From IMG/VR virus record IMGVR_UViG_2537561618_000006: DNA of 15,817 bases; one strand, 5' to 3'. Shown in pieces: positions 9,661 to 15,647 of the stretch. Each line of letters starts with the position of its first letter. The first letter of the stretch is position 1. The position numbers and the translations under genes were made by a program. Under the pieces are notes generated by a model. The model saw only the letters and a program-made list of their open reading frames with translations. It searched no databases and was not told the origin of the DNA. The stretch comes from a virus (Duplodnaviria > Heunggongvirae > Uroviricota > Caudoviricetes).

Positions 9661-10047
9661 ATGGCTACGAAAGAAGAAAACCTGAAACGTCTTTGTGAGC
9701 TGGCTGAGAGGCTGGGGCGTGAACCGGATGTCTCCGGTAGTGCGGCAGATATTGCGCAGCGAGTGGCGGAACTGGAGGAAGAGCTTGGAGATGCGGGGGA
9801 GGTCGCAGAGCCGGATACGTACTCACCATCGAAAGATGATCCGACCGCGCATAAAGGCGAGTCAGTTCCTGAACAGCCAGGCATTGTTACCGGAGACGAA
9901 ACGGGGCAGGTTACGGTGGTGGCACTGGCGACACTGCATACAAAATGTAATGGTTCAGTGATATTTGTTTCACCGGGAACGTCGTTTCGTGTTTCTGCTG
10001 AGGTGGCTGCCAGCATGGCGGCAGGTGGTCTGGCAAAAAGGCAGTAA
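9661..10047 (+). CDS. FI: DNA packaging protein (lambda FI-like)
   Basis: Start MATKEENL after aggagcgggt; C-terminal VTVVALATLHT...VSPGTSFRVSAEVAASMAAGGLAKRQ matches lambda FI (VTVVALVKLHT...LPGTAFRVSAGVAAEMTERGLARMQ). Confidence 0.8.
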   Translation: MATKEENLKRLCELAERLGREPDVSGSAADIAQRVAELEEELGDAGEVAEPDTYSPSKDDPTAHKGESVPEQPGIVTGDETGQVTVVALATLHTKCNGSVIFVSPGTSFRVSAEVAASMAAGGLAKRQ

Positions 10048-11415: not shown

Positions 11416-12156
11416 ATGACCACACCAAATCCACTGGCAAAGACGAAAGGTGCGGGGACGACGTTCTGGATGTATACCGGCAACGGCGATGCGTTTGCGA
11501 ACCCTTTGTCGGACACTGACTGGCTGCGTCTTGCGATGGTGAAGGATCTGCAACCTGGCGAAATGACCGCTGATGCAGAAGATGACACTTATCTCGATGA
11601 TGAAGATGCAGACTGGAAAACGACAACCCAGGGGCAGAAATCCGTTGGTGATACTTCGGCGACGCTGGCCTGGCGTCCGGGTGACAGCGGGCAGAAAAAA
11701 CTGGTTCAGTTGTTCGACTCCGGTGAAGTCTGCGCGTTTCGTATCAAATATCCCAACGGCACTGTTGATGTTTTCCGCGGCTGGCTGAGCTCACTGGGTA
11801 AAACCATTGCCTCAAAAGACGTGATGACCCGCACTGTGAAAATCAGCGGTGTGGGGCGTCCGTATCTGGCAGAGGAAGGCACTGAAACCGTGGGTGTTAC
11901 CGGACTGACGGTGGCACCGGCATCTGTCAGTGTCAAAGCGGGAGCAACCACCACACTGACCTTTACAGTAAAACCTGACGGGGCCAGTGACAAAGCGATC
12001 AGTGTGCATTCGTCAGATCCTCAGACTGCTTCGGTGACCCTGAGCGGGCTTGTGGCCACGGTGAAAGGCGTGAAGCAGGGCAGTGTCAGCATCGTGGGCA
12101 TGACCTCTGACGGAGAGTTTGTGGCAGTGGCTGCGGTGACCGTCAGCGCACCATAA
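11416..12156 (+). CDS. V: Major tail tube protein (lambda gpV-like) with C-terminal Ig-like domain
   Basis: Start MTTPNPLAKTKGAGTTFW after aaggagg; YLDDEDADW, GDTSATLAW, KYPNGTVDVFRGW, TRTVKISGVGRP match lambda gpV; C-terminal ~80 aa is T/V/S-rich as in the gpV Big_2-like domain. Confidence 0.9.
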   Translation: MTTPNPLAKTKGAGTTFWMYTGNGDAFANPLSDTDWLRLAMVKDLQPGEMTADAEDDTYLDDEDADWKTTTQGQKSVGDTSATLAWRPGDSGQKKLVQLFDSGEVCAFRIKYPNGTVDVFRGWLSSLGKTIASKDVMTRTVKISGVGRPYLAEEGTETVGVTGLTVAPASVSVKAGATTTLTFTVKPDGASDKAISVHSSDPQTASVTLSGLVATVKGVKQGSVSIVGMTSDGEFVAVAAVTVSAP

Positions 12157-12175
12157 CAGGACGATACTCATCATT

Positions 12176-12198
12176 GCCCCGGTTATCCGGGGCTTTTT
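12176..12198 (+). terminator. Putative rho-independent terminator downstream of the major tail gene
   Basis: Hairpin gccccgg-ttat-ccggggc (12176-12182 / 12187-12193) followed by ttttt at 12194-12198. Confidence 0.6.
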
Positions 12199-12211: not shown

Positions 12212-12601
12212 ATGATGTTTCTGAAACAGGATACGTTTAATTATGAAAAACAGTCCGTGGTGCTCAGTGAGCTGTCCGGGCTGCAGAGAATTGAATATCT
12301 GACGTTTGTTCAGCAGCGAACGGCAAAGTTTGATGCACAGGAGGGAGAACTGCCGGAGGCTGAACGACAGATTGCTTTTCTGCGTATGGGAATGGATATC
12401 AATGCCTGGCTGGTTTCCCGCTCACTGTGGAATGCTGAGCAGTCTCAGGATGTTGAGACGCTTTGCGCATCCATTATGACAACATGGTCGTATGATGCGC
12501 TGGGCGCGGGGGCGGAGAGGGTTCTGTCGCTGAGCGGTATGGGGACCATTGAGAATGCCGGGGATGATGATCATGAGGCGCTGACGCCGGAAAAGTCCTG
12601 A
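12212..12601 (+). CDS. G: Tail assembly chaperone (lambda gpG-like)
   Basis: MMFLKQDTF..., VVLSELSGLQRIEYL, LTTW-like region match lambda gpG (MFLKTESFEHNGVTVTLSELSALQRIEHL...). Confidence 0.85.
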   Translation: MMFLKQDTFNYEKQSVVLSELSGLQRIEYLTFVQQRTAKFDAQEGELPEAERQIAFLRMGMDINAWLVSRSLWNAEQSQDVETLCASIMTTWSYDALGAGAERVLSLSGMGTIENAGDDDHEALTPEKS

Positions 12602-12939
12602 CGCGGGAAATGCAGTTTGTCATGCGGCTTGCCCGGGAGTTCCGGCGGGCAGACTGGCGGCGGATGCTGTCGGATATGTCGGCCACTGAGCTTGGTGAGT
12701 GGGGCGATTATTTCCGGATGCAGAGCTTCAGTGATGTGTGGATGGATGCGCAGTTTGCCTCGCTGAAGGCATTGATCGTGAGAATGGTGTCCGGCAGCAG
12801 CGATGCTGCGGTGGCTGATTTCAGCCTTTTACCGGAAGAGAACGGGATACCGGAGCGAACGGACGAAGAACTGATGCATCTTGGGGAAGGTATTTCCGGA
12901 GGTGTGCGTTATGGACCAGATAGCCAACCTGGTCATTGA
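12577..12939 (+). CDS. T: Tail assembly protein T-frame segment, expected to be made as a G-T fusion by -1 programmed frameshift
   Basis: Open frame in the -1 phase relative to G, beginning 24 nt before the G stop and ending 29 nt inside H; position and overlap geometry identical to lambda G/T. Confidence 0.7.
   Translation, partial: GADAGKVLTREMQFVMRLAREFRRADWRRMLSDMSATELGEWGDYFRMQSFSDVWMDAQFASLKALIVRMVSGSSDAAVADFSLLPEENGIPERTDEELMHLGEGISGGVRYGPDSQPGH
12589..12595 (+). other. Candidate -1 slippery heptamer for G-T frameshifting (G GAA AAG)
   Basis: The only heptamer within the 12577-12601 G/T overlap with an A-AAG lysine slip site; lambda uses G GGA AAG at the equivalent place. Confidence 0.4.
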
Positions 12940-15647
12940 TTTGGGGATTGATGCGGCAGAGTTTAAAAATGAAATTCCCCGTATCAAAAACCTTCTGAAT
13001 GGTGCAGCCAGCGATGCAGAACGGTCTTCTGCCCGTATGCAGCGTTTTATGGAGCGTCAGACTCAGGCGGCCCGGCAGACAATGCAGGCGGCTTCTTCGG
13101 CTGCAACAGCAGCATCAGCCCATGCGCAGACGGTGGAGAAGAATGCACGGGCTCATGAACGCATGGCCCGTGAGGTGGAACAAACCCGTCTGCGCGTGGA
13201 TGCCCTGAATCAGAAAATGCGCGAGGAACAGGCGCAGGCCAGGGCGGCTCAGCTGGGGGTAAGCAGTGCTGCAGAAGTGTATATCCGCAAAATGGAGCGG
13301 GCAGGAAAAGCCACACATTCGCTGGGGCTGAAAAGTGCGGCAGCCCGGCGGGAGCTGGGGGTGTTAATCAGTCAGATGGCGCGCGGCAATTTTGGTGCGC
13401 TGAGGGGATCCGGGATAACGCTGGCTAACCGTGCCGGATGGACAGGCGCACTGATGTCGCCGAAAGGCATGATGACTGGCGGCGTTATTGGCGGACTTGT
13501 CGCGGCGGTCCTGGGTCTGGGTAAAGCCTGGCATGACGGCCGGAAGGAGGGCGAGAAATTTAACCGTCAGCTGGCGCTGACGGGACATTATGCCGGTGTC
13601 ACTGTCGGGCAGTTGTGGAAACTCAGCCGGGCCATATCCGGGAATGGTATCACGCAACATGCGGCAGCCGGTGCGCTGGCACAGGTGGTGGGCAGTGGGG
13701 CATTTCATGGAAACGATATTGGTATGGTGGCGAAAGCTGCCGCACAGATGGAGCGATCGGTTGGCCAGTCGGTCAGCGATACCATAAATCAGTTTAAGCG
13801 GCTGAAGGATGATCCTGTAAATGCCGCGAAGGCGCTGGACAATGCGCTGCATTTTTTGAATGCCACTCAGCTTGAGCAGATACGCGTCCTTGGGGAGCAG
13901 GGGCGGTCCAGTGATGCGGCCGGATCGCCATGTCTGCGCTGGCAGAGGAAACCGGTAAACGCACATCTGATATTGATAATAATCTCAATGCGCTGGGTAG
14001 TACGCTGCAAACCTTGTCTGACTGGTGGAAGCAGTTCTGGGATGCGGCCATGAATATTGGTCGTGAAGACTCGCTGGATGCGCAGATTGATGCGTTACAG
14101 GAAAAAATTCAGCGCGCGAAAAAATATCCGTGGACAAACGCCTCCACACAGGTGGAGTACGATCAGCAGCGTCTTAACGATCTTCAGGAGAAAAAACGCC
14201 GGAAGGATTTGCAGGATGCAAAAGCGCAGGCAGAACGGAATTACCAGGAGCAACAGAAACGCCGGAATGCTGAAAATGCCGCGCTGAACCGGATGAATGA
14301 AACGGAAGCTGCACGACATCAGCGGGAAATTTGCGCGTATTAATGCCATGCAGTACGCCGACCAGGCTGTCAGGGATGCGGCGATACAGCGTGAAAATGA
14401 ACGTTACGAAAAAGCCATTAGAAAAATACACGGGCAACCCGTAATGATGAGGCACCCGGTTATTGCTGCAGTACAGTCAGCAGCAGGCACAGGTGGAAGG
14501 GCAGATTGCTGCTGCCAGACAGTCAGCAGGCATTGCCACTGAAAGGATGACTGAAGCGCATAAACAGCTTCTGGCCCTGCAGCAGCGCATCAGCGACCTG
14601 GACGGGAAAAAGCTGACGGCAGATGAAAAGAGTGTGCTGGCCCGTAAGAATGAGCTGATTCAGGCGCTGACGCTGCTGGATGTGAAACAGCAGGAGCTGC
14701 AGAAACAGACAGCGCTTAACGACCTGAGAAAAAAAACGGTTCAGCTGACCAGCCAGCTGGCAGACAAAGAACGTGCACTGCGTGAGCAGCACAATCTGGA
14801 TATTGCCACTGCAGGTATGGGGGATAAGCAGCGGCAGCGCTACCAGGCACAGTTGCGCATCCGGCAGGAATACCGGCAACAGTTGCAACAGCTTGAGAAT
14901 GACAGTCGCCAGAAAGGCACTTACGGGACGGAGGACTACCGGAGGGCTGAGGAGGTGCTGAAGGGGAGCCTGAAGCGACAACTGAATGAAAACAAACGCT
15001 ACTGGCAGGAACTGGAAGTGGCGCAGGGCGACTGGAAAAACGGTGCCATGCGGGCGTTTCAGAATTTTACGGCGGATGCGGATAATGCGGCGGGAACGGC
15101 AGAACAGATGTTTACAGTGGCATTCAGCAGTGCCGGTAATGCACTGGCGACATTCTGTACCACCGGTAAGCTGAATTTTAAATCCTTCACCTCTTCCCTG
15201 TTGTCAGATATGGCCAGAATTATGGCACAGATGGCCATGATGCAGGCGGTAAAGGGCGTCGGTTCTTTATTCGGCTTCACGACTAATGCTGATGGCGGTG
15301 TTTACCAGTCTGCTGATTTGAGTCGCTACAGTGGCACGGTGGTTAACCGTCCGACGTTTTTTGCTTTTGCAAAAGGCGCGGGTGTGATGGGGGAAGCGGG
15401 AACTGAAGCCATTCTGCCACTGCGTCGCGGTGCTGATGGTAAGCTGGGGGTTGTGGCGGATACTGGTGGTTCAGGCATGGTGATGTTTGCCCCGCAGTAC
15501 AACATTGAGATCAATAACGACGGCACGAACGGGCAGATAGGTCCGGCTGCCCTGAAGGTGGTTTATGACCTCGGGAAAAAAGCGGCCGCGGACTTTATGC
15601 AACAGCAGGCCCGTGATGGTGGCCGGTTAAGTGGAGCATACCGGTAA
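12911..15647 (+). pseudogene. H: Tail tape measure protein (lambda gpH-like), reading frame broken at three points
   Basis: N-terminus MDQIANLVIDLGIDAAEF... matches lambda H MAEPVGDLVVDLSLDAARF; C-terminus EINNDGTNGQIGPAALKVVYDLGKK...RDGGRLSG matches lambda VINNDGTNGQIGPAALKAVYDMARK...RDGGLFSG. Coding frame changes near 13919-13926, within 14297-14343 and near 14451-14475. Confidence 0.85.

What the first reader, a model, noticed from the sequence alone, without database searches (positions are those of the whole stretch)
12577..12601. G-T programmed frameshift region with a non-canonical slippery heptamer
The G/T overlap geometry of lambdoid tail chaperones is conserved (T frame open in -1 phase, 24 nt overlap). 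Within that overlap the best slippery site is G GAA AAG (12589-12595) rather than the lambda G GGA AAG. The A-site Lys AAG to AAA slip is retained, but the P-site re-pairing is weaker, which might lower the G-T:G ratio.
Basis: partly seen in the sequence, partly recalled or inferred. Interest (0 to 1): 0.4.

Follow-up and report, generated by a model that had tools for sequence, protein, structure and literature searches.

The report
Lambda-type G-T tail chaperone frameshift site
This is the ordinary ribosomal slip site that lets a lambda-like prophage make a small amount of a fused tail-assembly chaperone, and its "odd" sequence GGAAAAG is the commonest form of that site in enterobacterial phages and is already annotated in phages N15 and LLS.

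Summary
Gene G (12215-12601) ends at TGA 12599-12601. The -1 frame opens after TGA 12574-12576 and runs to 12939. The only slip-capable sequence in the 22-nt overlap is G GAA AAG (12589-12595). Pfam finds the lambda G chaperone domain and the T domain in the predicted 241-aa fusion. T-domain homology starts right after the Lys codon, upstream of the ATG that annotators use.

The heptamer is not an oddity. Phage N15 carries GGAAAAG as its annotated "slippery sequence", phage LLS annotates it with a joined CDS, and phi80, HK225 and mEp213 have it too. In a survey of 27 T-protein clusters, 17 use G GAA AAG, about 4 use lambda's G GGA AAG, and the rest use A AAA AAG, C CCA AAA or stop-adjacent A AAA. 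The first heptamer base always matches the P-site codon's first base although the preceding codon varies. That argues for two-tRNA slippage rather than a bare A_AAG slip.

Efficiency is unknown. In a minimal in-vitro system this heptamer was the "unfavorable for slippage" comparison sequence. No downstream structure is predicted. A GAGG lies 10 nt upstream at dnaX-like spacing, but it is not specifically linked to GGAAAAG. This prophage copy also looks defective. The finding is already known and of low interest.

The parts
12215..12601 (+). Gene G, tail assembly chaperone, 128 aa, stop TGA at 12599-12601
   Evidence: ORF and translation. Pfam PF06894 Phage_TAC_2, 135 bits, residues 1-119. Annotated as gpG in the 99.9%-identical E. 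coli record.
12574..12576 (+). Last stop codon (TGA) in the -1 (T) frame upstream of the shift; sets the 5' limit of the shift window
   Evidence: Translation of the -1 frame and the overlap script.
12577..12601 (+). G/T overlap: the -1 frame is open while the G frame is still being read (22 nt of sense codons plus the G stop)
12589..12595 (+). Slip site G GAA AAG: P-site GAA (Glu), A-site AAG (Lys). After a -1 shift it reads GGA AAA.
   Evidence: It is the only re-pairing-competent site in the overlap. It is homologous to lambda G GGA AAG. It is identical to the annotated slip sites of N15 and LLS. It is invariant in 93 of 93 close relatives and present in 17 of 27 T clusters.
12595..12939 (+). 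T segment read in the -1 frame after the shift (114 aa, VLTREMQF...SQPGH, stop at 12937-12939). Joined to G residues 1-127 it gives a 241-aa G-T fusion.
   Evidence: Pfam PF06223 Phage_tail_T, 54 bits. Homology to other T proteins begins 4-5 residues after the Lys, upstream of ATG 12610.
12575..12578 (+). Shine-Dalgarno-like GAGG, 10 nt before the heptamer; candidate 5' stimulator (inferred, not shown)
   Evidence: Sequence. It meets the criteria of Sharma et al. 2014 (GAGG 6-17 nt before the motif's second base) and the 9-14 nt rule for -1 shifts. It is GAGGCG or GAGGTG in all 80 IMG/VR relatives. It is not specifically associated with GGAAAAG.
12176..12198 (+). Terminator-like hairpin with a T run between the major tail gene V and G
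   Evidence: Annotated as a rho-independent terminator at the same place in mEp460, Ayreon and N15.
11416..12156 (+). Major tail tube gene V, upstream neighbour
   Evidence: Mapped from the annotation of the 99.9%-identical record L005; ORF.
12911..15647 (+). Tape measure gene H, downstream neighbour. Its start overlaps the end of T. It is interrupted in this window.
   Evidence: Start mapped from the mEp460 and L005 annotations. Broken into ORFs 12881-14053, 13930-14343 and 14463-15647. Indels are listed.

Best explanation
This is the programmed -1 ribosomal frameshift site of a lambda-family G-T tail assembly chaperone gene pair.

Most ribosomes read G to its stop at 12599-12601 and release the 128-aa chaperone. 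A minority slip back one base at G GAA AAG (12589-12595). In that slip, A-site tRNA-Lys moves from AAG to AAA, a fully cognate re-pairing. P-site tRNA-Glu moves from GAA to GGA, which is Watson-Crick at positions 1 and 3 and G.U at best in the middle. Those ribosomes continue in the -1 frame to 12939 and make a 241-aa G-T fusion.

By analogy with lambda, the G part of the fusion binds the tape measure protein and the T part recruits the tail tube protein.

Shown here: the frames, the domains, the homologous position of the site, and nucleotide-level conservation of all seven bases across lineages. Inferred: that the shift actually happens, that it is a two-tRNA slip, and that its efficiency is low, probably at or below lambda's roughly 4%. 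The upstream GAGG at 10 nt may help, but this is speculative.
For: Position and domains:
- The G and T frames and the overlap are confirmed.
- The fusion carries PF06894 and PF06223.
- The pair lies between V and the tape measure gene.

Homology of the junction:
- Junction alignment places this EK|V at lambda's GK|V.
- T homology (xELxFxxxLAREFxRxDWRxML) starts just after the Lys, before ATG 12610.

Existing annotation of the same heptamer:
- N15 annotates GGAAAAG as 'slippery sequence for -1 translational frameshift'.
- LLS annotates 'minus-one programmed translational frameshift site GGAAAAG' with a joined CDS.
- The same heptamer occurs in phi80, HK225 and mEp213.

Conservation across lineages:
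- 17 of 27 T clusters, spanning about 17 enterobacterial genera, have GGAAAAG.
- All 17 clusters with the hexamer GAA AAG have G at heptamer position 1. The preceding codon meanwhile varies (CCG, GCG, CTG, TTG, GTG, ACG), and flanking third-codon positions show 1.3-1.9 bits of entropy.
- Heptamer position 1 equals position 2 in 27 of 27 clusters across G, A and C types.
- Lys is AAG in 22 of 27 clusters, although AAG is only 24-35% of Lys codons.

Viable phages: mEp460, cdtI, Tritos, Ayreon and HannyBb carry the identical site.
Against: - No experiment on this lineage was found.
- In a reconstituted E. coli system, AUG GAA AAG gave mainly 0-frame product, and the authors chose it as unfavourable for slippage.
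- A_AAG tetramers without a stimulator are barely above background in vivo (0.147% against 0.112%).
- No downstream structure is predicted (z = -0.11).
- In this particular copy the portal and tape measure genes carry frame-breaking indels, so the site may have no current function in this host.
- The cross-lineage statistics treat clusters as independent, which they are not fully.
- The survey was seeded with one peptide pattern of T, so it may not sample the whole family.
Confidence: 0.85

Rival explanations
1. Single-tRNA slippage. Only tRNA-Lys slips on the tetramer A_AAG, as in IS3, IS1222 or B. subtilis cdd. The preceding G GA plays no re-pairing role.
For: A_AAG is the best -1 tetramer in E. 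coli, and CGA_AAG sites are used naturally. tRNA-Glu cannot pair canonically with GGA. Some relatives have clearly non-re-pairing P-site codons next to a stop: CTG GCA AAA TAG in L105 and L107.
Against: The first heptamer base is a synonymous third-codon position, yet it is G in all 17 GAA AAG clusters while its codon's first two bases vary and neighbouring third positions are highly variable. It also co-varies with the P-site codon's first base in the A AAA AAG and C CCA AAA lineages. Natural tetramer sites rely on strong 3' stimulators, with 5.6% seen only with the IS3 pseudoknot. None is predicted here.
Confidence: 0.1
2. There is no frameshift. T is made on its own from ATG 12610, as PGAP and most phage records annotate it (109 aa).
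For: Separate G and T CDSs are annotated in the E. coli record and in mEp460, cdtI and Tritos. The fusion protein is absent from a collection of 15 billion proteins.
Against: The ATG is not conserved. Lambda, N15 and phi80 have Leu or other residues there, and T homology begins upstream of it, directly after the slip site. There is no good Shine-Dalgarno sequence at a normal distance before 12610. The -1 geometry and an A_AAR site are kept in all 27 clusters. The absent annotation reflects pipelines that do not join these CDSs.
Confidence: 0.03
3. It is a relic. The site is intact, but this prophage copy is defective, so no selected frameshifting occurs in this host.
For: Compared with an intact relative, the window has a 1-nt insertion in the portal gene (6039). 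It also has four 1-nt indels and a 303-nt deletion in the tape measure gene, and both genes are split into several ORFs. The G protein variant is named mostly from Shigella flexneri and enteroinvasive E. coli, whose prophages are often decayed.
Against: All the single-base indels lie in short homopolymers and could be assembly errors. G, T and the site are 100% identical to copies in other genomes. This rival concerns current use, not what the element is.
Confidence: 0.5
4. Transcriptional slippage. RNA polymerase adds or drops an A in the A run, producing a shifted mRNA.
For: The site contains a run of A residues.
Against: The run is only four A's. From my own knowledge of the field, known productive slippage needs about 6-9 or more identical bases. 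Conservation of the flanking G G and of the final G fits tRNA re-pairing, not polymerase slippage.
Confidence: 0.01

Closest known systems
Phage lambda G / G-T programmed -1 frameshift (G GGA AAG; Levin, Hendrix and Casjens 1993; Xu, Hendrix and Duda 2004, 2013)
   Same: The gene order V-G-T-H is the same. The Pfam domains are the same. T is in the -1 frame and has no start of its own. The Lys AAG A-site codon is at the homologous position, and a pyrimidine follows it.
   Different: The P-site codon is GAA (Glu) instead of GGA (Gly), so the -1 re-pairing has a middle-position mismatch. Only one sense codon separates the site from the G stop, against five in lambda. T is 38% identical and lacks lambda's C-terminal duplication, at 114 aa against 144 aa.
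Phage N15 genes 14/15, and phi80, HK225, mEp213 and LLS
   Same: The heptamer G GAA AAG is identical and at the homologous codons. It is annotated as the slip site in N15 and LLS.
   Different: T is only 41-45% identical. The preceding codon is GCG or GTG rather than CCG. Five codons rather than one precede the G stop. There is no GAGG at 10 nt.
Phages cdtI, mEp460, Tritos, Ayreon and HannyBb, and the prophage module found in 1847 of 5426 complete E. coli genomes
   Same: These are 96-97% identical in DNA, with an identical CC GGAAAAG TCC TGA. This is the same element.
   Different: In those records G and T are annotated as separate genes and the frameshift is not marked. The window copy has damaged portal and tape measure genes.
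A_AAG tetranucleotide or hexanucleotide -1 sites (IS3 C_CAA_AAG, IS1222 G_CGA_AAG, B. subtilis cdd A_CGA_AAG)
   Same: They use the shift-prone E. coli tRNA-Lys on AAG, with a P-site codon that cannot re-pair canonically.
   Different: Those sites depend on a pseudoknot or on a Shine-Dalgarno stimulator. Here no 3' structure is predicted, and position 1 conservation points to partial P-site re-pairing.
E. coli dnaX (A AAA AAG with AGGGAG 10 nt upstream plus a 3' hairpin)
   Same: The A-site AAG is the same, and an SD-like element lies at the same 10-nt spacing.
   Different: The SD-like element is only the 4-nt GAGG in this window. No hairpin is predicted. The outcome is a longer fusion protein, not a shorter product.

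Membership tests
Lambda-type G-T tail assembly chaperone frameshift | Two overlapping ORFs located between the major tail gene and the tape measure gene | tested here: met
   V at 11416-12156, G at 12215-12601, T frame to 12939, H from 12911.
Lambda-type G-T tail assembly chaperone frameshift | Upstream protein is a gpG-type chaperone and the downstream segment is a gpT domain | tested here: met
   PF06894 at 1.4e-39 and PF06223 at 2.1e-14 on the predicted fusion.
Lambda-type G-T tail assembly chaperone frameshift | Second ORF is in the -1 frame, and its homology extends upstream of any start codon to the overlap | tested here: met
   Frame arithmetic and translation. Junction alignment with 13 other phages.
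Lambda-type G-T tail assembly chaperone frameshift | Canonical X XXY YYZ slippery heptamer in the overlap | tested here: not met
   G GAA AAG is X XYY YYZ. The Y YYZ half is canonical and the X XX half is not. The same departure is the majority state of the family and is annotated in N15 and LLS, so this feature is not truly defining.
Lambda-type G-T tail assembly chaperone frameshift | A few percent of ribosomes produce the G-T fusion, which is required for tail assembly | not testable with these tools
   This needs a reporter assay, a western blot or mass spectrometry, plus phage genetics.
SD-stimulated bacterial -1 frameshift (dnaX / IS911 type) | Shine-Dalgarno-like sequence 9-14 nt 5' of the shift site | tested here: inconclusive
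   GAGG lies at 10 nt and meets the published criteria. SD-like 4-mers at 6-14 nt occur in 10 of 27 clusters, against about 4 of 27 in control bins (naive p = 0.014). They are equally frequent with weak and canonical heptamers, 7 of 17 against 4 of 10. The acidic G tail biases composition toward GAG.
SD-stimulated bacterial -1 frameshift (dnaX / IS911 type) | Stable stem-loop or pseudoknot 5-9 nt 3' of the shift site | tested here: not met
   The 85 nt downstream fold no better than shuffles (-31.4 against -31.0 kcal/mol, z = -0.11).
A_AAG single-tRNA (tetramer) frameshift | A_AAG in frame, with no constraint on the bases 5' of it | tested here: not met
   A_AAG is present, but heptamer position 1 is invariant and co-varies with the P-site codon across lineages.

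The most novel reading that the evidence does not exclude
G GAA AAG may shift in vivo at lambda-like efficiency (a few percent) despite a middle-position G.U or mismatch in the P site. If so, the 'non-slippery control' of in-vitro kinetic studies would be a naturally selected heptamer.

Both slipping tRNAs (Glu and Lys) carry the mnm5s2U34 modification. The G:G-T ratio of most enterobacterial lambdoid phages would then be doubly sensitive to the host's tRNA thiolation state, more so than in lambda, where only tRNA-Lys is involved.
Probability: 0.25. Interest if true: 0.45.

Novelty: already known. Interest (0 to 1): 0.18.

Why it matters
Biologically it matters little. It is the textbook G-T frameshift in a very common E. 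coli/Shigella prophage module.

Three practical points follow:
- Annotation pipelines leave the fusion unannotated. G and T are separate CDSs in the RefSeq, mEp460, cdtI and Tritos records checked, in a module present in about a third of complete E. coli genomes, and the fusion is absent from a 15-billion-protein collection.
- Frameshift finders restricted to X XXY YYZ will miss the commonest site of this family.
- The heptamer used in vitro as the 'unfavorable for slippage' comparison is the one most of these phages have kept. Measuring it in its native context would be a cheap and informative experiment on P-site re-pairing rules.

Tried and rejected
- **Downstream stimulatory RNA structure.** I folded 12596-12680. 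The result was no better than shuffled sequence, so I rejected it.
- **Compensation of the weak heptamer by an upstream SD-like element.** GAGG is at the right spacing here. Across clusters, however, SD-like elements are no more frequent with GGAAAAG than with canonical heptamers, so this is not supported as a rule.
- **Within-lineage conservation as evidence.** The heptamer lies in a 47-nt invariant run among 93 close relatives, and the T region barely varies, so this has no discriminating power.
- **Literature search for GGAAAAG or 'G GAA AAG' in a phage context.** Only Peng et al. 2019 turned up. Licznar et al. 2003, which measured NNA_AAG hexamers, could not be retrieved. I did not try to retrieve Xu et al. 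2004.
- **Small hairpin GGCG-CUGA-CGCC (12577-12588) just 5' of the site.** It would lie inside the ribosome during the shift and is not conserved in other lineages, so I did not pursue it.
- **Transcriptional slippage.** Rejected because the A run is only 4 nt.
- **First viral-contig scan.** It returned only 99-100% identical copies. Diversity came instead from the one-genome-per-species scan.

Full report
**What is in the sequence.**
The G frame reads ...CAT GAG GCG CTG ACG CCG GAA AAG TCC TGA, with the stop at 12599-12601. G starts at ATG 12215 and encodes 128 aa. The frame one base back carries stops at 12565, 12568 and 12574-12576. It is then open from 12577 to a stop at 12937-12939.

Any shift that joins the two frames must therefore occur within 12577-12598.

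I checked each codon in that stretch against its -1 neighbour. Only AAG->AAA re-pairs fully. GAA->GGA re-pairs at positions 1 and 3. This picks out G GAA AAG at 12589-12595, as reported.

The bare heptamer is not rare. It occurs 4 times in the window against 2.2 expected, including once in frame in the terminase gene. In-frame A_AAG occurs at 0.35% of codons, giving a 2.4% chance of one in a 7-codon stretch. The single-sequence observation is therefore only mildly significant.

**What the genes are.**
The predicted fusion joins G residues 1-127 to 114 aa of the -1 frame, 241 aa in total. It matches Pfam PF06894 (lambda tail assembly chaperone G, 135 bits) and PF06223 (minor tail protein T, 54 bits). 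The pair lies between the tail tube gene and the tape measure gene. A terminator-like hairpin sits between V and G, as annotated in relatives.

The DNA is 96-97% identical to the viable phages Tritos, mEp460, cdtI, Ayreon and HannyBb. It is 99.9% identical to a prophage of E. coli CFSAN029787. The module is present in 1847 of 5426 complete E. coli genomes.

In all of the annotated records I inspected, G and T are annotated as separate genes. The three commonest fusion sequences of this lineage are absent from a collection of 15 billion proteins. G alone is on more than 1000 contigs.

**Is the shift site really here?**
Lambda reads GCG GGA AAG TGT TCG ACG GVG AGC TGA at the end of G, more precisely GCG GGA AAG TGT TCG ACG GTG AGC TGA. 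I aligned the junctions of 14 phages. The window's Glu-Lys falls on lambda's Gly-Lys. The conserved T motif (xELxFxxxLAREFxRxDWRxML) begins four to five residues after the Lys in the -1 frame. That is upstream of ATG 12610, which annotators use as the T start and which other lineages lack. So the site is homologous to lambda's, and independent initiation of T is not the conserved mechanism.

**The heptamer is not unusual for the family.**
A tblastn of the T segment against phage records found 195 records. Phage N15 annotates 10027-10033 as 'slippery sequence for -1 translational frameshift', and those bases are GGAAAAG. Phage LLS annotates 'minus-one programmed translational frameshift site GGAAAAG' with a joined CDS. 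phi80, HK225 and mEp213 have the same heptamer.

Other heptamers in the phage set:
- Lambda, PhiR12_2 and an Stx2a phage have G GGA AAG.
- CP-1639 and an Stx1a phage have A AAA AAG.
- Vibrio phage HY01 has C CCA AAA.

A scan of one genome per species with a T alignment gave 64 loci. Pooled with the other loci and grouped into 27 T-protein clusters, the heptamers break down as follows:

| Heptamer | Clusters |
|---|---|
| G GAA AAG (about 17 enterobacterial genera) | 17 |
| G GGA AAG | about 4 |
| A AAA AAG | 2 |
| C CCA AAA | 2 |
| A AAA (Lys) directly followed by a stop | 3 |

**Heptamer or tetramer?**
In all 17 clusters with the hexamer GAA AAG, the base before it is G. That base is the third position of a codon that itself varies (CCG, GCG, CTG, TTG, GTG, ACG). 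The other third-codon positions nearby have 1.3-1.9 bits of entropy in the same set.

Across all 27 clusters the first heptamer base equals the first base of the P-site codon, whether that is G, A or C. Lys is AAG in 22 of 27 clusters, although AAG is only 24-35% of Lys codons in E. coli and lambda. The base after the heptamer is a pyrimidine in 25 of 27.

The -1 frame is not translated upstream of the slip. These are therefore nucleotide-level constraints, and they fit two-tRNA slippage with partial P-site re-pairing better than a bare A_AAG slip. The naive probabilities are below 1e-6 for AAG, and at most 0.002 for position 1 even if only nine events are counted. They overstate the case, because the clusters share ancestry.

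**How efficient is it likely to be?**
Published work bears on this, but none tests this phage.
- Peng et al. 2019 used AUG GAA AAG as the sequence 'unfavorable for slippage' and saw mainly 0-frame product, whereas G GGA AAG shifted readily at low EF-G.
- Sharma et al. 2014 found tetramers without a stimulator barely above background (0.147% against 0.112%), and A_AAG at 5.6% only with the IS3 pseudoknot.
- In the same study the best V_VVA_AAG heptamers gave about 0.3% alone and up to 3.7% in the best 3' context.
- Lambda keeps the 0 frame about 96% of the time, and its roughly 30:1 ratio matters for assembly.
- Departures from XXX in the first half of the heptamer are known. G_GA occurs in several RNA virus groups and C_CA(A) in IS3. 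PRFect lists a 'twofour' motif class among annotated tail chaperone frameshifts and discusses G:U pairing of the Glu tRNA on GGA. The motif's exact definition is in a supplementary figure that I did not read.

**Stimulators.**
The 85 nt downstream fold no better than shuffled sequence (z = -0.11).

Upstream, GAGG (12575-12578) lies 10 nt before the heptamer. That is the dnaX spacing, and it falls within the published 9-14 nt and 6-17 nt criteria. In 46 of 80 close relatives it is GAGGTG.

Across clusters, SD-like 4-mers at 6-14 nt occur in 10 of 27, against about 4 of 27 in control bins (naive p = 0.014). They are no more frequent with GGAAAAG (7 of 17) than with other heptamers (4 of 10). The acidic C-terminal tail of G also favours GAG codons. 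I treat the GAGG as a candidate only.

**State of this copy.**
Against the intact relative, the window has a 1-nt insertion in the portal gene (6039). It also has four 1-nt indels in the tape measure gene (13919, 14330, 14419, 14452), all in short homopolymers. In addition there is a 303-nt in-frame deletion at 13238-13245. Either the prophage is defective or the assembly has homopolymer errors. The G-T region itself is 100% identical to copies in Shigella flexneri SFBU1023 and E. coli ECMA0423.

**Verdict.**
The feature is the ordinary G-T frameshift, in its commonest enterobacterial form, already annotated in N15 and LLS. It is not novel. The residual interest lies in the gap between the strong natural conservation of this heptamer and its poor in-vitro slipperiness, and in its systematic omission from annotation.

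Noticed in passing
window 6039; 13238-13245; 13919, 14330, 14419, 14452: Relative to an intact relative (L005), the portal gene has a 1-nt insertion (T5 to T6). The tape measure gene has four 1-nt homopolymer indels plus a 303-nt in-frame deletion flanked by an 8-nt repeat. Both genes are split into several ORFs. Either the prophage is defective or the assembly has homopolymer errors.
   Followed up: partly
L136-L142, L144-L148, L156-L159 (genome contigs): About 20 loci are 100% identical to phage lambda G-T but sit on small, mostly low-coverage contigs of unrelated organisms (Kitasatospora, Neobacillus, Oceanobacillus, Shewanella, Leeuwenhoekiella, Enterococcus, Pseudoxanthomonas). This looks like lambda DNA contamination of those assemblies.
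   Followed up: no
L102, L129, L103 (genome contigs): E. coli- or Enterobacter-type G-T prophage sequence occurs in metagenome bins labelled Bacillota, Geobacteraceae and Proteobacteria. These are probably mis-binned contigs.
   Followed up: no
window 4639-4645; 4372-4378; 14729-14735: An in-frame G GAA AAG also occurs inside the terminase large subunit ORF. In-frame A AAA AAA heptamers occur in the terminase and tape measure ORFs. No extended -1 ORF was looked for.
   Followed up: no
window 12176-12198: A strong terminator-like hairpin (7 G-C pairs, loop of 4, then TTTTT) lies between the tail tube gene V and G. It is annotated as a rho-independent terminator in mEp460, Ayreon and N15. It presumably lowers expression of G and downstream genes relative to V.
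   Followed up: partly
L105, L107, L150, L122, L151: In Kluyvera, Ewingella and Providencia prophages the slip site directly abuts the G stop codon: CTG GCA AAA TAG, ATG GGA AAA TAG and CTG GAA AAG TAG. This suggests a stop-codon-assisted P-site slip variant of the same G-T device.
   Followed up: no
window 12577-12588: A small perfect hairpin GGCG-CTGA-CGCC (about -6 kcal/mol) lies immediately 5' of the heptamer and overlaps the GAGG. It is not conserved in the N15, phi80 or lambda lineages.
   Followed up: partly
window 12215-12939 and public records: The 241-aa G-T fusion of this very common lineage is absent from a collection of 15 billion proteins, and all of the annotated records I inspected annotate T from ATG 12610. 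The frameshift product is therefore systematically missing from annotation.
   Followed up: yes
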